Source of the DNA: a virus
DNA length: 43,216 nt
Reading direction: 5' to 3' (one strand)
UHGV virus genome: UHGV-0353264
Shown: one piece after another, positions 1 to 16,860 of the stretch
How the letters are laid out: every line of letters begins with the position of its first letter
Numbering within the stretch: the stretch's first letter is position 1
The notes under the pieces: generated by a model
What the model saw: only the letters and a program-made list of their open reading frames with translations
The model's database searches: none
What the model was told of the DNA's origin: nothing
Program-made: the position numbers and the translations under genes

Positions 1-25
1 AATAATACCGTTCTCTTTATAAAGT

Positions 26-66
26 AAAACCCCCGAACTGGTAAGGAACGGGGGTTTTACTTTTTA
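26..66. terminator. Rho-independent terminator hairpin (bidirectional candidate)
   Basis: 10-bp stem aaaacccccg (26-35) pairs with cgggggtttt (49-58), followed by a T-run (59-66). Both strands give a U-rich tail. Confidence 0.6.
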
Positions 67-420
67 ACTTTAATTTTGTGCAGCACACGATTCCAACGAA
101 AATGATTATGGATCAATTTCGTTGACCTGTACAAGCAACTTGCAATCTCTGACATAAAAAACGCGAGCCTTTACGAAGAAATCGACATTGATGAAAAGAT
201 TAACGTGACCGCTTTTTGATAAGTACATTAAAATCGGTTTCGTTATTGGCAATTTTGCTGTGCTTTACACCATGCCACTGAATTCCCCCATTGAAACGAG
301 TGGTGTCGTCAAAGCTCTGGTGTGGAGTGCAGCACTCGATTCCAATAACTCGCACGTTCAGTTTTGGGGAGATGTAAGGGCTAATCTGAACGGCTGCATT
401 CCTTGTTTAAGGAAAAACGA

Positions 421-11234: not shown

Positions 11235-12137
11235 TTAACCCTCCAGTGCTTTTTCAGCCAGGGTGATTACTTCAGCGAGATTTTCATCCGTTACTTCACC
11301 AAGTTTCCTGGCTCCCTGTTTTTCCAGAATTGCAATAGCTTCTGCCCGGTAACCCCCTTTTGCTAACTGGAGGATCAACCCTTCAGCTTGTTTGCGTAGT
11401 GCCGCGAAATCAATTGTATGGTCATCTTTGGCGTCATTATTCTGGCTGGAATTTGCTGCGTCTTTGCGTGCAAATTCTTCCTGCAGCTGAAGGTACTCAA
11501 CACGGTTGATCTCGATATGGCCTTTTTTAAGCATCTCGTTCAACTTGCGTAAGGTGTGGAGTTCACTGGCTGCTGTGCCGGATACATTTTTGACGTAAAA
11601 CGGCCCCGTGCGTTCTCCATCTTTGTTACTGGCCTTTTTCGGCTTAACTTCATCACGCCCATCTGCAGGTGCATCAAGTAGCTGCTCGGCAAAAGCACGT
11701 CGCTCGCCGATGGTTGGCAGGTCGTCCCAGAACTTAAGAATGTTACGGGACAGGTCCAGGAGAGCAGGTTTAAGCAGCGCCCTGGCTCGTTTGACGCCCT
11801 GTAATGCGCTGTCGAGAGCATCAATCTGAACTACTCGTTTATCGCCTTCAGCATCACGGTAGGCAACAGCACGTTGCAGCATGTCTTCTGTGATAGGGGT
11901 GGCTACCGGGTAGAAACCAGCCAGTGCGATAACGTCGCTGAACTCCAGATCATCCAGTGTCATTGCCGCTGACATGTTTTCAGCTTCAGTTGCTGTATCC
12001 CGACATTCCTGCACTCGTGAAATCGTGTCAGGATGCATAACAATACCTGATGCCATTGTGCGGATAAGACGTTCAAGCAGCGCATTATGTTGTGCCAGAA
12101 GTTGATTATTAAGTTCGAGACTGGTTTCTAAACTCAT
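11235..12137 (-). CDS. Hypothetical acidic phage early protein
   Basis: 300 aa ORF in operon with replication genes; no recognisable motif. Confidence 0.55.
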
Positions 12138-12283
12138 ACTGTGGTCCTCGCTACAAGGAGAATGAAAGTGATGATCAGACCGAGCGCAGTGGCAACGGCC
12201 AGACCGGTCATCAAATCGAAGTTTTTACGGCGATAACGGAGAACATCGCGCCCCGTCAGTCGATGGATGTGTTCAGGTTTCAT
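12134..12283 (-). CDS. Small Arg-rich protein with C-terminal transmembrane helix (first gene of leftward operon)
   Basis: 49 aa ([49 protein letters not shown]); AAGGA RBS 9-13 nt upstream; ATGA overlap with the next gene. Not in the supplied ORF track (under 60 aa). Confidence 0.4.
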   Translation of the reverse strand: MKPEHIHRLTGRDVLRYRRKNFDLMTGLAVATALGLIITFILLVARTTV

Positions 12284-12496
12284 CGGTTGTATTCCTTTTT
12301 TCATATCGGGGAGCGCGCTGTTGCGAGTGCGCTTTCAGACATAAAAAAGCCCGTCACTTGAGGCGGGCAAAGGCTACACACAGCAATTACATGGATGTCA
12401 GTTTTAACCACGTCAGACGAGATGGCTCTCTCTGTACCCCTACAGCGAGAACTCGGCTAATATCTCTTTACCCCTATAGTTTTAGAGAGAATTAAG

Positions 12497-13021
12497 ATGT
12501 CTGAAGAAAAAGGACTTGTACGGCGTATAACTGAGGCGGCCACTAGTGCTGGTGGTGCTTTGAAAGGTGCTGTTGATTTAGCAAAAGAAGTTAATGCGTT
12601 GCAGGTGGATTACAATGTTAAAAGTAAAACTATCGATCTACTTGATAAACTAATTGATGCGCGTACTGGACAATTCGCACTAACGGAGCTTTTGAACGAA
12701 GCTAAACAGCGCATTGTTGAACTCGAATCCCTTCTGGAAAAGAAACAGGATTGGGATAGTGAGAAAATGAACTATGAAATGTACCACCCGATTACCAATA
12801 CGGTGGTCTATGTACTGAAGCCTACTGACGATCCTGAGTTCAAGCCTCATTATCTTTGTACTACATGCTATGAGTCGGGTATGAAGTCTATACTTCAATA
12901 CCATACTTCTAATGCCGCTTATAAAATTCTCAAGTGTCATAAATGCTCCGCTGAATATAAATTTCCCCGAAATATAGAAGTCAGTGGCAAAATTCCTGCA
13001 CCGTTACAACCTGCCAGATGA
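12497..13021 (+). CDS. Coiled-coil protein with C-terminal Cys4 zinc ribbon, unknown function
   Basis: 174 aa; CTTC...CHKC pairs; AT-rich; lies between the early operon start and the repressor gene, convergent with the repressor. Confidence 0.5.
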   Translation: MSEEKGLVRRITEAATSAGGALKGAVDLAKEVNALQVDYNVKSKTIDLLDKLIDARTGQFALTELLNEAKQRIVELESLLEKKQDWDSEKMNYEMYHPITNTVVYVLKPTDDPEFKPHYLCTTCYESGMKSILQYHTSNAAYKILKCHKCSAEYKFPRNIEVSGKIPAPLQPAR

Positions 13022-13373
13022 TTAGCAGTTCTCTTTGGTGGTGGTGTAGTGGTAGATGCTGAACTTCGGATTGACTCAATGGACTGATCTTCACCCCACC
13101 CCAAAAGGAACTAAGCGCCCCATCGTCGGGGCGTTTCAACTTGCGTGACTTATCAGTTTGTCGCGGTGTTGTCCTCTACGCTTACCGTACGCATACGGAC
13201 TCGGCGCTTACCTCGATCCCATCGGGTGCTATTTCGTTTTGCCAGGAGTACTGCGGCTTACCTGTCACGCGGTTCAGTTTGTTAAAGAGCCAGTATTAAA
13301 AAACGCATTAATTATGCGATATCGTATTTATATGCGTTATGGGATTTTTGTGTCAATACGAAAATGAATTATT

Positions 13374-13410
13374 TTGCAAATAAGAAAACCGCCCTTGTGG
13401 AGAGCGGTTT
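13374..13410 (-). terminator. Rho-independent terminator of the repressor gene
   Basis: Minus strand aaaccgc-tctccacaagg-gcggttt followed by tcttatttg, 30 nt downstream of the repressor stop. Confidence 0.6.
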
Positions 13411-13440: not shown

Positions 13441-14115
13441 TTAGTACATACGTAGCGCGGATTTGGCGATCCCCGCCACGTAATGGATTTTTTCAATGTT
13501 TTCGCGTGGTACTCTGACTGGTGGATGATCTTCATTTACAGACATTAGATGGAACAGGCCATCGCGTTCGAACAAGAAGGTTTTAACCATGACCTCACCG
13601 TCCCGGGTAACCACAAGTACTTCATCACCAGGAGTGTAGTCGTGGTTGGGTTCGACGATTACGAACTCCCCCTCTTTGATTCTAGGCATCATTGAATCAC
13701 CAACACATTTCAGGGCGTATGCATCTTCATCCTTTGTCGGCCAGTATATGAAACCATCACTGCTACCTACTGAATATTGGGTGTCGCTCCAAAGTCCTCC
13801 AACGCCTAGCTGAGTGTTTCCCAAAACAGGTACTTTATTAAACCTAAGAGAAATATACGTTTTTATACCTGTCGCGTCCTCTTTCTCCATTTCTTGAAGG
13901 CTCCTTTCTGCCAAGTCTATTGGTGACACGTGGAAGTAGTTGGCGATCTGCTTTAACGTTGCGTATTTCGGATCTTTCACCTCTCCTGATACCAGCCTGT
14001 GTAGCGTTGGTTGGTTCAGCTGTAACCGACGTGCCAGCTCAGTTATCGAGCTTATCTTGGCTTTGTCCATCAGGTACTTGATGTTTTGAGAAAGGATATC
14101 GGTAGTATCAATCAT
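13441..14115 (-). CDS. CI-like repressor (XRE HTH plus S24 LexA-like peptidase domain)
   Basis: 224 aa; N-terminal HTH (SSITELARRLQLNQPTLHRL), C-terminal GDSMMPRIKEGEFVIV and catalytic Lys context typical of autocleaving repressors. Confidence 0.9.
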   Translation of the reverse strand: MIDTTDILSQNIKYLMDKAKISSITELARRLQLNQPTLHRLVSGEVKDPKYATLKQIANYFHVSPIDLAERSLQEMEKEDATGIKTYISLRFNKVPVLGNTQLGVGGLWSDTQYSVGSSDGFIYWPTKDEDAYALKCVGDSMMPRIKEGEFVIVEPNHDYTPGDEVLVVTRDGEVMVKTFLFERDGLFHLMSVNEDHPPVRVPRENIEKIHYVAGIAKSALRMY

Positions 14116-14256
14116 TTGGATTCATCCATGTTGTATACAGGGACGGTGATTATGCGTTATCGGATATTTTAATCTAGGATGACATAGAATTGCTGTATTG
14201 CTGAGTAATCCGTTTTCGTATAAATTTGCGCTATAGACGAAAGTGGAGACTTAAAT

Positions 14257-14460: not shown

Positions 14461-16647
14461 ATGTCCGATAGCAAACCATGGGGCGCTACGCCTGATGAGT
14501 GGTTTCATTTCGACCTGGTATTGGGGCGGACTGCTCATCTTCTCCCAGTTGTATGTAACCCCAGTGCGACCATATCCCCTGATAGTAAATTGAAAGCGTT
14601 GGGTAAGACGCCGAGTCGCTATAACCGGGACCGCCAGGTCACCGGTATTGCTCAATGGACCGGGCATGTTGTTACTGAGCATGATTTTGCCCGCTGGTCG
14701 AATGAACCGGATTATGGCATCTGCGTGCGTACAGGCCATGGCTGGCTGGCGCTGGACTGCGATAGCGAAGATGAAGACATTCAGGCAGATATTCGCAAAA
14801 CGCTTGTGCAACTTCTGGGGGAGTTGCCGCCGCGACGCTGGCGAGCAAACAGTAATAAGTGTCTGTATCTGCTGGCCGTTGATGGTGATTTCCGTAAGCG
14901 TATCCATCGCCTGGCGGGGGATATGGGCATTATCGAGTTGCTGGCGAACGGGCAGCAGTTCGTTGCCTGTGGTACGCACAGCAGCGGCGCGCGTATTGAA
15001 TGGGACGGTGGTTTGCCGGATGAACCTCCGGCTATTACAGGTGAGCAGCTTGAAACGCTGTGGCAGCGCCTGGCTGAACAACTCCCTGTGTCGGTAACCA
15101 CCGAAGCGGGCAACACGAAGATGCGCGACCGTTCAGCATTCACGCCCGGCGCGACGGATGATACAGCTGAATATCTTGATGCCAATGGCTGGACGCTGCT
15201 GGATGGCGCAAACGGTGAACGATATATCCGCTGTCCGTTTGAAGACGGCCACAGTAGCGGAGGCGATCCAACAAGCACAGTTTATTTTCCTGCGGGAACC
15301 GCAGGCTTTGAGCAGGGGCATTTTAAATGCCTGCATGCCAGTTGCGCGCATCGTGATGACGGAGATTTCCTGAATGCCATCGGGATCCGCAACGACGATT
15401 TCGAAGATCTGACCAGCATCGAAGTGGCGGAACCTTTACCGCTGCCTGCTTTCGAGCGTGATAAATGGGGGCGTATCGAGGCAACCATCAGCAACGCAGC
15501 CAAAGCAGTAGTACGCCCTGATTTTGTGGACATCGATATTCGCTTTGACCAGTTCCGCGACGAAATCATGTTTGCCCCGGCAGGATCCGGACAATGGCGG
15601 GCATTCACCGATGCGGATTATGCGCGCCTGCGCATCACGATGGAAAAGCGGGGATTTAAACCTGTTGGCCGTGAACTTATTCGCGATGTGGTGTTACTTG
15701 CAGCCGATGAACAACCATTCGATTCAGCGATCACCTGGCTGAACGGACTGGAGTGGGATGGCGTGCCGCGCATCGAATGTTTCTACCATACGCACTTCGG
15801 TACCGCCGACACGCCTTATACCCGTGCGGTGTCTATGTACATGTGGACCGCGTTGGCGGGGCGAGTACTGGAGCCAGGCATCAAAGCGGATATGGTGCCG
15901 ATCCTCGTTGGTCCGCAGGGCTGCGGTAAGTCTTCCGGAGTGGAGGCACTGAGCCCTGATCCTGCGTTTTTTACTGAAATCTCTTTTGCCGAAAAAGACG
16001 ATGATCTCGCTCGAAAAATGCGTGGTCGGCTGGTGGCAGAGATTGGTGAACTGCGCGGACTTAATACCAAAGAGCTGGAGTCAATCAAAGCGTTTGTGAC
16101 GCGTACTCACGAAAACTGGATCCCGAAATACCGGGAGTTCGCCACCCAGTTTCCTCGTCGCCTGGTGTTCGTTGGTACCACCAATGAGGACGAATTCCTT
16201 GCGGACAAGACTGGTAACCGTCGCTGGCTCCCCGTGGAAGTGTCGAAAGTCGACGTGAAAGCGATAAAAAGAGATCTCCTTTTACTTTGGGCTGAGGCTC
16301 GTGAGGTGTTTCAGCGTCTGGGGGGTATCCAGTTCCGTGAGGCTGAACAACTGGCAGCGAGTGTCCATGAACAGTACACCATCAAGGATGCTTGGCTTGA
16401 AACGGTAGAGAAATGGCTCGACACGCCCGACCTGATGACTAATGAACTTCCGCGAAATTGCGAATTTTTACGCGCAAGTGATGTTTTGCGTGATGCGATT
16501 GGGCTAAATCCTGACCGCATCGGAAAACGCGAAGAAATGCGAATTAGTAATGTTTTGCAAAATTGCGGGTATAAGCGTGCCCAAAGGCGAATTAGGGGGA
16601 AAAAATGCAAGGTTTGGGAACCGCTGGAACCACGCGGAACCACCTAA
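14461..16647 (+). CDS. DNA primase-helicase (PrimPol N-terminal domain, zinc-binding region, VirE/D5-like P-loop NTPase)
   Basis: 728 aa; GICVRTGHGWLALDCD PrimPol-like motif, Cys/His cluster CPFEDGH...HFKCLHASCAH, Walker A GPQGCGKSS. Confidence 0.85.
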   Translation: MSDSKPWGATPDEWFHFDLVLGRTAHLLPVVCNPSATISPDSKLKALGKTPSRYNRDRQVTGIAQWTGHVVTEHDFARWSNEPDYGICVRTGHGWLALDCDSEDEDIQADIRKTLVQLLGELPPRRWRANSNKCLYLLAVDGDFRKRIHRLAGDMGIIELLANGQQFVACGTHSSGARIEWDGGLPDEPPAITGEQLETLWQRLAEQLPVSVTTEAGNTKMRDRSAFTPGATDDTAEYLDANGWTLLDGANGERYIRCPFEDGHSSGGDPTSTVYFPAGTAGFEQGHFKCLHASCAHRDDGDFLNAIGIRNDDFEDLTSIEVAEPLPLPAFERDKWGRIEATISNAAKAVVRPDFVDIDIRFDQFRDEIMFAPAGSGQWRAFTDADYARLRITMEKRGFKPVGRELIRDVVLLAADEQPFDSAITWLNGLEWDGVPRIECFYHTHFGTADTPYTRAVSMYMWTALAGRVLEPGIKADMVPILVGPQGCGKSSGVEALSPDPAFFTEISFAEKDDDLARKMRGRLVAEIGELRGLNTKELESIKAFVTRTHENWIPKYREFATQFPRRLVFVGTTNEDEFLADKTGNRRWLPVEVSKVDVKAIKRDLLLLWAEAREVFQRLGGIQFREAEQLAASVHEQYTIKDAWLETVEKWLDTPDLMTNELPRNCEFLRASDVLRDAIGLNPDRIGKREEMRISNVLQNCGYKRAQRRIRGKKCKVWEPLEPRGTT

Positions 16648-16802
16648 AAGAGAAGGTGGTTCCACCTTGCAGACCTTGTGGCAAGCGGGGCGGAACTACT
16701 GGAACCACTGGAACCGCCTTTCTACTAGAAACCCCATATATATATAAGTCGATTGAGGGAAAGGTTAGGAAAAGGTGGTTCCAGGTGGGGGCAGGTGGTT
16801 CC
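16617..16802. repeat. Iteron array, at least 9 copies of GGAACC(A/G)C in both orientations, flanking an AT-rich segment (candidate replication origin)
   Basis: Direct copies at 16617, 16627, 16637, 16692, 16701, 16710; inverted GGTGGTTCC at 16655, 16774, 16794; AT-rich stretch with (TA)5 at 16731-16758. Overlaps the primase 3' end. Confidence 0.55.
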
Positions 16803-16860
16803 ACTCCGAATTAGCAACTTTTTGCATGTTGATACATGCAATATGCGGATCGGAACTGCG

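What the first reader, a model, noticed from the sequence alone, without database searches (positions are those of the whole stretch)
13140..13350. Structured non-coding region downstream of the repressor gene
The 420-bp gap between the zinc-ribbon gene and the repressor contains a 7-bp inverted repeat pair (gcgtgac at 13143 / gtcacgc at 13266) enclosing three direct GCTTACC repeats, and two copies of TTATGCG(A/T)TAT (13310-13320, 13330-13340) that recur in the repressor/cro intergenic region (14150-14160). A CGCAT-N5-ATGCG palindrome overlaps the first. This looks like a second operator-bearing site and possibly a repressor-controlled small RNA antisense to the 12497 gene.
Basis: seen in the sequence. 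Interest (0 to 1): 0.5.

Follow-up and report, generated by a model that had tools for sequence, protein, structure and literature searches.

The report
Phage early-left promoter, boxA and structured leader RNA
The gap downstream of the prophage repressor gene holds the repressor-controlled leftward early promoter, followed by a perfect host-type boxA signal and a conserved folded RNA of about 130 nt that is in no RNA family database and most likely lets transcription pass the terminators in front of the phage replication genes.

Summary
The motifs are real, with coordinates off by 1-3 bp. They belong to two different things.

(1) 13296-13356 is a lambda-PL/OL-like control region on the minus strand. 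It has TTGACA-N18-TATAAA, overlapped by two 14-bp operators of the form ATGCG-N4-CGNAT. The same operator type occurs twice between the repressor and cro genes.

(2) 13143-13290 is the transcribed leader of the early-left operon.
- It starts with GCTCTTTAACA, a perfect match to the gamma-proteobacterial boxA consensus.

This leader module occurs once per genome in more than 75 viral contigs. It is joined to at least 15 unrelated promoter/operator types.
- Five sequence lineages keep helices P1, P2 and P3 through compensatory changes: 20 of 31 pairs change on both sides, and no shuffle reached this.
- A 19-nt segment is nearly invariant.
- The GCTTACC repeats are specific to one lineage. Two of them flank a dispensable hairpin insert.

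An intrinsic terminator always lies between this leader and the first early-left gene. I therefore infer a processive antitermination leader that works like nut or put.
- It is a member of neither family.
- Rfam has no match.
- No transcript, protein binding or antitermination activity has been shown.

The parts
13386..13410 (-). Intrinsic terminator of the repressor gene (10-bp stem followed by a T-rich tail)
   Evidence: An equivalent GC hairpin plus T-run precedes the promoter in the other immunity types.
13351..13356 (-). PL -35 hexamer, TTGACA
   Evidence: Sequence. Best promoter match, 11 of 12. GTCAA is conserved in the Yersinia phage YeP4.
13327..13332 (-). PL -10 hexamer, TATAAA. The spacer is 18 nt here and 17 nt in most other E. 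coli copies. Inferred transcription start is about 13320.
   Evidence: The consensus scan missed it because it requires T at position 6.
13332..13345 (+). Operator OL2, ATGCGTTATGGGAT, lying in the promoter spacer and touching the -10
   Evidence: 0 mismatches; D1; conserved layout in YeP4.
13314..13327 (+). Operator OL1, ATGCGATATCGTAT (near-palindrome), covering the end of the -10 and the inferred start site
   Evidence: I6.
13296..13309 (+). Possible weak third operator, ATTAAAAAACGCAT. One good half-site, centred 18 bp from OL1.
   Evidence: Sequence only; inference.
13304..13318 (-). CGCAU-N5-AUGCG hairpin at the extreme 5' end of the inferred transcript, followed by U6. Made of operator half-sites and specific to this immunity type.
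   Evidence: Not conserved in other immunity types.
13279..13290 (-). boxA, GCUCUUUAACAA (inferred NusB/NusE binding site), about 31 nt from the inferred start
   Evidence: only match in the window. Consensus GYTCTTTAANA from PMC5725501. Present in 76 of 77 elements retrieved without using boxA.
13264..13270 (-). P1 5' arm, GCGUGAC
13143..13149 (-). P1 3' arm, GUCACGC. It closes a domain of about 128 nt.
   Evidence: 5 of 7 pairs change on both sides across lineages.
13249..13262 (-). P2 5' strand: GGU, then a 2-nt loop, GCCGC, 1 nt, GUA
13155..13168 (-). P2 3' strand: CAC, 1 nt, GCGAC, a 2-nt loop, ACU
   Evidence: 9 of 12 pairs change on both sides.
13228..13246 (-). Nearly invariant 19-mer, CCUGGCAAAACGAAAUAGC. 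CCU pairs with AGG at 13173-13175; the rest is a single-stranded junction.
   Evidence: Unique in the window at up to 3 mismatches.
13210..13227 (-). P3 hairpin: 3-bp base, bulged A on the 3' side, 4-bp top, loop GGG
   Evidence: 6-7 of 9 pairs change on both sides; 99-100% of cells paired.
13185..13198 (-). P4 hairpin, CCGUA-UGCG-UACGG. Found in lineage A only. It lies in a 26-nt insert flanked by the 13-nt direct repeats at 13174-13186 and 13200-13212.
   Evidence: D2. Locus L056 lacks exactly this insert; lineages D and E have no P4.
13116..13133 (.). T1 hairpin, CGCCCC-N6-GGGGCG. On the + strand it is the terminator of the 12497 gene. On the - strand it is a conserved hairpin 8-9 nt after P1, with a weak U-tract.
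   Evidence: I5. Retained in relatives that have no inserted gene (L021, L022).
12497..13021 (+). 174-aa coiled-coil / Cys-rich protein (phrog_1244, unknown function). A variable cargo gene inserted in the leader, convergent with PL.
   Evidence: Absent or replaced in most relatives.
12343..12368 (-). tL: intrinsic terminator (GCCCG-N10-CGGGC plus U6), 59 nt upstream of the first early-left gene
   Evidence: Relatives have an equivalent at the same place, often stronger (GCCCCUC-GCAA-GAGGGGC plus U8).
12134..12283 (-). First gene of the early-left operon: 49 aa with a transmembrane segment, phrog_11981. It is followed by a 300-aa protein, then DUF2800 and DUF2815.
14152..14165 (+). Operator of the same type in the repressor/cro intergenic region, ATGCGTTATCGGAT
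14208..14221 (+). Second right-hand operator, ATCCGTTTTCGTAT, abutting a TATAAA upstream of cro
   Evidence: Same pair of sites 55 bp apart in YeP4.

Best explanation
The gap contains two adjacent elements on the minus strand.

(a) 13296-13356 is the leftward early promoter and operator, equivalent to lambda PL/OL. A strong sigma-70 promoter carries two 14-bp operators (possibly three) for the neighbouring CI-like repressor. One lies in the spacer and one over the start site. The promoter is therefore off in the lysogen and fires on induction or infection.

(b) 13116-13290 is the 5' leader of the early-left transcript. About 31 nt from the start it carries a consensus boxA, the RNA site that recruits NusB-S10 and through them NusA, NusG and SuhB onto RNA polymerase. 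Directly after it comes a closed RNA domain of about 128 nt: P1, an interrupted P2, a junction holding a nearly invariant 16-nt single strand, and P3 with a bulged A. A further hairpin follows.

Proposed mechanism: boxA plus the folded domain convert the polymerase into a termination-resistant form. The folded domain would act either alone or with an unidentified factor. The polymerase could then cross the T1 hairpin, about 0.8 kb of untranslated RNA antisense to the inserted cargo gene (a likely Rho target), and the intrinsic terminator tL just before the first early-left gene. It would then express the replication and recombination operon.

Shown: the motifs, their conservation, the covariation and the gene layout.
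Inferred: transcription from PL, repressor binding, Nus recruitment and antitermination.
For: Promoter and operators:
- TTGACA-N18-TATAAA with overlapping operators.
- The same operator type sits between repressor and cro.
- Yersinia phage YeP4 has the same layout, with a repressor 61% identical.
- About 15 unrelated upstream types all carry a promoter-like site 17-48 nt before boxA on the same strand.

boxA:
- It is the only match in the 43-kb window to GYTCTTTAANA (consensus from PMC5725501).
- It is present in 76 of 77 elements retrieved through the 19-mer alone. The single variant still fits the consensus.
- Sequence conservation stops exactly at its 5' edge.

Structure:
- The P1 helix appears in the minimum-energy fold of every lineage.
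- In the 13-sequence, five-lineage alignment, 95.9% of cells pair and 20 of 31 pairs change on both sides. No shuffle (0 of 500) reached the paired fraction or the number of double-change pairs. Slid controls gave at most 6 such pairs. The 29-sequence set gave the same picture.
- There is one copy per genome.

Need for read-through:
- An intrinsic terminator with a U6-8 tail lies 15-60 nt before the first early-left gene in lineages A and C. There is no room for a promoter after it.
- Lineage D instead has a hairpin with a U5 tail directly after P1.
- The leader always precedes the same operon, at 233-1043 nt depending on the inserted gene.

Precedents: boxA protects long untranslated RNA from Rho (PMC7665894). 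HK022 has the same layout, cI - PL - putL.
Against: - There are no expression or binding data of any kind.
- The wobble-pair test does not decide the strand: 95.9% paired on the minus strand against 94.5% on the plus strand.
- For this window's variant, the minus-strand fold is no more stable than shuffled sequence (z = +0.66). The plus strand folds better (z = -1.79). Consensus fold energies favour the plus strand in lineages A and C.
- The structural alignment was fitted by hand and rests on only five lineages, so independent events are few.
- Nus complexes recruited by boxA alone are known to counter Rho rather than strong intrinsic terminators. The key step therefore depends on an untested activity of the folded domain.
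- No N-like protein was found.
- The element has no counterpart in the rightward operon.
Confidence: 0.57

Rival explanations
1. boxA-only protection. [quoted passage not shown] Terminator tL is a leaky attenuator. The folded domain does something else, such as giving stability, acting as a processing site or binding a protein, and does not modify the polymerase.
For: Perfect boxA. An untranslated stretch of 0.3-1 kb before the first gene, much of it antisense to a cargo gene. Precedent for boxA acting without a phage protein (PMC7665894, PMC5725501).
Against: It does not explain why a 128-nt domain with a nearly invariant 19-mer and covarying helices travels with boxA as one module across many immunity types. 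The barrier conserved in front of the operon is an intrinsic terminator, not a Rho site.
Confidence: 0.2
2. A discrete regulatory small RNA. Transcription from PL ends at T1 or at the next hairpin, giving a structured RNA of about 200 nt. This RNA acts in trans, or as an antisense or decoy RNA, during lytic growth. That is.
For: A hairpin always follows P1. In lineage D it has a U5 tail. The closed multi-helix domain with GGA-containing loops looks like a stand-alone RNA.
Against: In lineage A, T1 lacks a proper U-tract on this strand. boxA has no known role in a short RNA. The element is always physically linked to the same downstream operon. The 12497 gene it would oppose is absent in most relatives.
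Confidence: 0.12
3. Ligand- or factor-sensing attenuator, riboswitch-like. The P1-closed junction is an aptamer. Its occupancy decides whether downstream hairpins terminate transcription.
For: The architecture (closing helix, multi-helix junction with invariant single-stranded nucleotides, then a hairpin) is that of many riboswitches.
Against: No alternative antiterminator pairing between the P1 3' arm and T1 was found by inspection of the sequences. T1 is not a good terminator in most lineages. No Rfam riboswitch matched. boxA is not a riboswitch feature.
Confidence: 0.05
4. The functional strand is the plus strand: a structured RNA antisense to the PL leader, made by read-through from the cargo gene. 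Alternatively, the element acts as DNA.
For: The plus-strand fold is better for this window and for lineages A and C. Pairing statistics are equal on both strands.
Against: The T1 hairpin plus TTTCAACTT terminates plus-strand transcripts before they reach the domain. Relatives without any cargo gene keep the element. On the plus strand, boxA and the promoters would be meaningless coincidences.
Confidence: 0.06

Closest known systems
Lambda PL/OL with nutL (boxA plus boxB, N protein)
   Same: Same position and logic: the repressor gene, then a leftward promoter with repeated operators shared with the right operator region, then a boxA in the leader, then terminators before the early-left genes.
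   Different: There is no short boxB hairpin after boxA. No N-like arginine-rich protein is encoded before the first terminator. There is only one site per genome, with no nutR. boxA is the rRNA-type consensus rather than lambda's weaker CGCTCTTA. The RNA partner is a 128-nt multi-helix domain.
HK022 putL/putR antiterminator RNAs
   Same: A folded nascent RNA directly downstream of PL that would act in cis on the polymerase. Gene order is identical, cI - PL - RNA element.
   Different: put is about 70 nt, consists of two stem-loops, has no consensus boxA, needs no Nus factors and occurs twice per genome (PMC9378689). The covariance model of the present element finds nothing in the HK022 PL region. 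There is no sequence similarity.
rRNA-type, Nus-only boxA antitermination (rrn leaders, suhB 5' UTR, CRISPR array leaders)
   Same: Perfect GYTCTTTAANA boxA near the 5' end of a long untranslated RNA. The extended sequence AACAAU..CAGA resembles, from my memory of it, the rrn boxA spacer.
   Different: Those systems act mainly against Rho and in RNA folding. Here the conserved obstacle is an intrinsic terminator, and boxA is coupled to a phage-specific structured domain.
mEpimmI (mEp021) Nus-dependent non-lambdoid coliphages
   Same: Non-lambda temperate coliphages that use host Nus factors and boxA-containing sites (PMC11893012).
   Different: They have an N-like protein, Gp17, and three boxA/boxB nut sites. 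They have a different gene order, and the leader search of the phage collection returned no mEp phage.

Membership tests
Lambda-type operator/promoter (OL/PL) | Repeated operator sequences shared between the left and right control regions | tested here: met
   The 14-bp motif occurs at 13314, 13332, 14152 and 14208. Window total is 9 matches against 1.86 expected.
Lambda-type operator/promoter (OL/PL) | Operators overlap the -35/-10 of a promoter that reads away from the repressor gene | tested here: met
   TTGACA-N18-TATAAA with OL2 in the spacer and OL1 over the start site.
Lambda-type operator/promoter (OL/PL) | The repressor binds the operators and represses transcription | not testable with these tools
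   Needs footprinting or reporter assays.
Lambda-type nut site | boxA sequence in the leader RNA | tested here: met
   GCTCTTTAACA equals GYTCTTTAANA.
Lambda-type nut site | Short boxB hairpin (about 15 nt, purine-rich pentaloop) a few nucleotides after boxA | tested here: not met
   boxA is followed after 8-12 nt by the 5' arm of a long-range helix. No short hairpin is present there in any lineage.
Lambda-type nut site | N-like arginine-rich antiterminator protein encoded in the early region | tested here: inconclusive
   No Pfam or PHROG hit of that kind, and no gene lies between PL and the first terminator. Small divergent N proteins could escape detection.
Lambda-type nut site | Paired sites in the left and right early operons | tested here: not met
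   The covariance model finds one copy in the window (118.6 bits; next best 9.6) and one per related contig.
HK022 put RNA | An RNA of about 70 nt made of two stem-loops with put sequence similarity | tested here: not met
   The present element has a different size and topology. The model gives no hit on the HK022 PL-nun region (PMC9378689).
HK022 put RNA | Acts in cis on RNA polymerase without protein factors | not testable with these tools
   Needs in vitro transcription and rpoC zinc-binding-domain mutants.
Nus-factor (boxA-only) antitermination | Consensus boxA near the 5' end of a long untranslated transcript | tested here: met
Nus-factor (boxA-only) antitermination | NusB/NusE/SuhB association and dependence | not testable with these tools
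   Needs ChIP or nus mutants.
Any Rfam 15 family | Score at or above the gathering threshold | tested here: not met
   No hit in the gap at gathering threshold. Only noise at E-value up to 10.

The most novel reading that the evidence does not exclude
This is a previously undescribed class of cis-acting processive antitermination RNA. It would be a hybrid of the rRNA/nut route and the put route. A consensus boxA loads the host Nus complex. A phage-specific domain of about 128 nt, with a nearly invariant 16-nt junction strand, makes that complex resistant to intrinsic terminators without any N-like protein. The module is portable and has been recombined onto many different immunity regions and at least two different early operons.
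Probability: 0.35. Interest if true: 0.75.

Novelty: new variant of a known kind. Interest (0 to 1): 0.62.

Why it matters
Only a few solutions to early antitermination in temperate phages are known: N with nut sites, put RNA, and Q. A conserved, covarying RNA domain coupled to a perfect rRNA-type boxA, with no N protein, would add a new one. It occurs in a widespread group of enterobacterial prophages, including 92 of 5426 complete E. coli genomes. Among them are the enterotoxigenic strain H10407 and O103:H2 and O45:H2 strains.

It would also be a natural test case for how far Nus complexes can be reprogrammed by RNA alone.

In practice it corrects annotation: one phage record calls a 47-aa protein across the RNA. 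It also defines a hot spot where cargo genes are inserted between the leader and the terminator.

Tried and rejected
- Rfam scans of the window and of the gap gave nothing relevant in the gap.
- There are no tRNA or tmRNA genes.
- A consensus fold on an automatic MAFFT alignment of all lineages failed because the 3' halves were misaligned. I replaced it with a hand-segmented, N-padded alignment.
- Within-lineage mutual information was uninformative because the variants are linked haplotypes.
- An earlier P2 pairing scheme gave C.A mismatches in this window. I dropped it for the scheme shared by all lineages.
- The G.U versus A.C strand test was inconclusive.
- The single genome-contig scan was wasted on a 15-mer too short for 596 Gb. 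It returned only chance hits.
- The paper on HK639-type antiterminator RNAs (PMC3187212) is not held.
- A sigma-54 reading of the 19-mer was rejected because the GG-to-GC spacing is 14 rather than 11.
- Small ORFs in the leader, including the 47-aa CDS annotated in vB_EcoM-606R2, were rejected. The region varies by paired compensatory changes, and no minus-strand ORF of at least 30 aa exists there.
- A 6-nt complementarity between the 19-mer (GGCAAA) and the left flank of tL (UUUGCC) was considered as an antiterminator pairing. It was dropped because lineages C and D lack it.

Full report
**Setting**

The window starts in the E. coli chromosome: the ohsC small RNA lies at 21-97 on the minus strand (101 bits). 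The rest is a prophage. Around the finding the gene order is:
- a leftward operon: DUF2815, DUF2800, a 300-aa protein and a 49-aa membrane peptide ending at 12283;
- a rightward 174-aa Cys-rich gene at 12497-13021;
- the 419-bp gap;
- a leftward repressor with HTH and peptidase S24 domains at 13441-14115;
- a rightward cro-like gene, a VapE-type primase/helicase, a Q antiterminator (PF06530) and a holin.

The gap is 99.8% identical in E. coli IAI1, H10407 and O103:H2 12009, among others. It matches at 95% identity or better in 92 of 5426 complete E. coli genomes. It is 97.6% identical in four induced phages of the vB_EcoM-606R2 type.

**Observation**

- Three GCTTACC copies within 83 bp are far beyond chance.
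- The 11-mer TTATGCGWTAT alone is not significant.
- The 14-bp near-palindrome it belongs to, ATGCGWTATSGKAT, is significant: 9 matches at up to 2 mismatches against 1.86 expected, with no shuffle reaching 9.
- Its three perfect copies and one 2-mismatch copy lie at 13314, 13332, 14152 and 14208.

**The right-hand third is a PL/OL equivalent**

On the minus strand the sequence reads TTGACA (13356-13351), 18 nt, TATAAA (13332-13327). Most other E. coli copies have a 17-nt spacer. One operator fills the spacer up to the -10. The next covers the end of the -10 and the inferred start near 13320. The two are 18 bp apart (D1). A half-site 18 bp further on may be a weak third operator.

The repressor/cro region carries two sites of the same type, 56 bp apart.

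Yersinia phages YeP4-6 have a repressor 61% identical. They keep the same arrangement: two left sites 18 bp apart over a TTGACC-N18-TATAAA promoter, and two right sites 55 bp apart.

The gene order is that of lambda and HK022: repressor gene, its terminator, a leftward promoter with operators, then the early-left genes.

**The left two-thirds is a conserved leader that begins with boxA**

The Yersinia phages lack the 12497 gene. Their gap aligns with window 13228-13387 only. Within that alignment there are blocks of perfect identity outside the promoter.

One block, read on the minus strand, is GCTCTTTAACAA at 13290-13279.
- It matches the gamma-proteobacterial boxA consensus GYTCTTTAANA of Baniulyte et al. 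(PMC5725501).
- It is the only such match in the 43-kb window.
- At up to 1 mismatch to the 13-mer rRNA form, which I quote from memory, it is also unique.

A second block is the 19-mer CCTGGCAAAACGAAATAGC at 13246-13228.

A pattern joining the two blocks retrieved 77 IMG/VR contigs, one of them a chance hit. The 19-mer alone, which is blind to boxA, retrieved 79 loci.
- Two of these are chance hits.
- 75 carry GCTCTTTAACA.
- One carries GTTCTTTAACA, which still fits the consensus.
- One is truncated by a rearrangement.

Sequence similarity between contigs ends exactly at the 5' edge of boxA. Upstream of it there are at least 15 unrelated promoter/operator types. Nearly all have a TTGAC-type promoter 17-48 nt before boxA on the same strand, preceded by the terminator of the upstream gene. 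The leader is thus a portable module recombined onto many immunity regions.

**The leader is structured**

The viral set contains four sequence lineages:
- A, the majority, which includes this window;
- B;
- C;
- D, the Yersinia type.

A metagenome scan added a fifth, E.

| Lineage | P1 5' arm / 3' arm |
|---|---|
| A and C | GCGUGAC / GUCACGC |
| B | GCAUGAC / GUCAUGC |
| D | GCACUGG / UCAGUGC |
| E | GCAUCGG / CCGAUGC |

P1 appears in the minimum-energy fold of every lineage. Inside P1 there are four further features:
- an interrupted helix P2, with three segments separated by small internal loops;
- a 3-bp CCU/AGG helix;
- the nearly invariant single strand GGCAAAACGAAAUAGC;
- hairpin P3, with a 3-bp base, a bulged A on the 3' side and a 4-6-bp top. 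The top differs in every lineage: CGAU/AUCG, GGUA/UACC, GCGA/UCGC, CAAUCC/GGAUUG and CACCCC/GGGCUG.

Pair counts on the two alignments:

| Alignment | Cells forming standard pairs | Pairs changed on both sides | Shuffles reaching this | Slid controls |
|---|---|---|---|---|
| 29 sequences, hand-segmented | 96.3% | 21 of 31 | 0 of 500 | at most 5 pairs |
| 13 sequences, five lineages | 95.9% | 20 of 31 | 0 of 500 | at most 6 pairs |

Three caveats apply. The alignment was fitted to the structure. Only five lineages contribute, so independent events are few. The shuffle control ignores relatedness.

A covariance model built from this alignment finds one copy in the window (13135-13290, minus strand, 118.6 bits; next best 9.6 bits). 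It finds exactly one in each related contig and none in the HK022 PL region.

**What the GCTTACC repeats are**

On the RNA they read GGUAAGC.
- One copy (13256-13262) spans the start of P2.
- One (13206-13212) spans the 3' base of P3.
- One (13180-13186) follows hairpin P4.

The triple repeat exists only in lineage A. At the same positions lineage B has GGCCAAC, GGCAGGU and GCUUACG. Copies 13180 and 13206 sit inside 13-nt direct repeats spaced 26 nt apart, which flank P4 (D2). Locus L056 lacks exactly that 26-nt unit, and lineages D and E have no P4. The repeats therefore look like the trace of an insertion, or a deletion hot spot, rather than a binding array.

**Which strand**

Wobble pairs do not decide this: 95.9% of cells pair on the minus strand and 94.5% on the plus strand. 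For this window's variant the plus strand folds better (z = -1.79 against +0.66). I nevertheless assign the element to the minus strand for three reasons.
- boxA and all the promoters are on that strand.
- The downstream operon is on that strand.
- On the plus strand, the T1 hairpin with its T-rich tail stands in front of the domain and would stop transcripts from the 12497 gene before they reach it.

**Why antitermination**

Downstream of P1 there is always a hairpin, T1. In lineages A and C it reads CGCCCC-N6-GGGGCG. In lineages D and E it is a different GC-rich stem, with a U5 tail in D.

After T1 the contigs differ. Many go on within about 100 nt to the first early-left gene. Others carry one of several opposite-strand cargo genes, here the 174-aa protein. 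As a result the distance from boxA to the first gene ranges from 233 to 1043 nt.

In lineages A and C, immediately before that first gene, 15-60 nt from its ribosome-binding site, lies an intrinsic terminator on the transcribed strand.
- In the window it is GCCCG-N10-CGGGC plus U6, at 12368-12343.
- In many relatives it is GCCCCUC-GCAA-GAGGGGC plus U8.
- Its form varies in others.

In lineage D the corresponding barrier is the U5-tailed hairpin directly after P1.

No promoter fits between this terminator and the gene. Expression of the replication and recombination operon from PL therefore requires read-through.

A leader that starts with a Nus-loading boxA, continues with a conserved folded RNA and is followed by terminators follows the logic of lambda nutL and HK022 putL. 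I therefore propose a cis-acting processive antitermination leader. boxA would also protect the roughly 0.8 kb of untranslated antisense RNA from Rho, as shown for CRISPR leaders (PMC7665894).

**Comparison with known systems**

- It is not a lambda-type nut site. There is no boxB hairpin, no N-like protein was detected, and there is a single copy.
- It is not put. put is two stem-loops of about 70 nt without a consensus boxA (PMC9378689), and the model gives no hit on HK022.
- It shares boxA with the rRNA, suhB and CRISPR class but adds a phage-specific domain, and the barrier here is an intrinsic terminator.
- The Nus-dependent mEpimmI coliphages use an N-like protein and boxA/boxB sites and are a different group (PMC11893012).
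- Rfam 15 has no matching family.
- My literature searches found no description of this element.

**Verdict**

The conserved object, however, is a boxA-led structured leader of the early-left operon, not an antisense small RNA. It is a new variant of a known kind of system. Its mechanism is inferred from anatomy and comparison only.

Noticed in passing
window 21-97 (-): The ohsC small RNA (antitoxin of the shoB/ohsC pair) matches Rfam at 101 bits. The window therefore begins in the E. coli chromosome, with the prophage to its right. The integration junction was not located.
   Followed up: no
window 16620-16810: Between the primase/helicase gene and Q there are many direct and inverted copies of GGTGGTTCC / GGAACCAC, next to an AT-rich stretch (tatatatata). 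This looks like an iteron-type replication origin.
   Followed up: no
window 12369-12387 (-) and the same place in related loci: A G/U-rich block, UUGCUGUGUGUAGYCUUU, is conserved directly 5' of terminator tL in lineages A and C, whatever cargo gene lies upstream. It recalls the GU-rich boxC of nut and rrn leaders (my recollection, not checked). No test was done.
   Followed up: partly
between T1 (13116) and tL (12368); loci L001-L093: This interval is a hot spot for cargo genes. The window has a 174-aa Cys-rich protein (phrog_1244). The 606R2-type phages have a 44-46% identical variant. Other contigs have unrelated inserts or none.
   Followed up: partly
L056 6492-6621: A natural variant lacks the 26-nt P4 unit exactly between the two 13-nt direct repeats. 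It still scores 97 bits with the model, so P4 appears dispensable.
   Followed up: yes
window 13112-13119 and 13203-13210: There is a perfect 8-nt complementarity, TAAGCGCC / GGCGCTTA. It links the segment after P3 to the 3' arm of T1 and could offer an alternative pairing. It depends on sequence on the cargo-gene side, so it is specific to this variant.
   Followed up: no
L002 3136-3279 (ON470579.1, protein URC08718.1): The phage record annotates a 47-aa hypothetical protein on the plus strand across P1, boxA and the operators. Given the paired compensatory variation there, it is probably not a real gene.
   Followed up: partly
window 13346-13350: This window has one more A in the PL spacer (18 nt) than the copy in most other E. 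coli genomes (17 nt). This is the single difference behind the 99.8% identity, and it might weaken the promoter here.
   Followed up: partly
L019, L030, L039, L072 (lineage B) and L034: Here the same leader module precedes a different early-left operon. tblastn found none of the window's early-left proteins downstream of the leader in L019, L034, L039 and L072. In L019 the operon includes a 280-aa protein that looks ParB-like by eye (not checked) and a small CxxC protein.
   Followed up: partly
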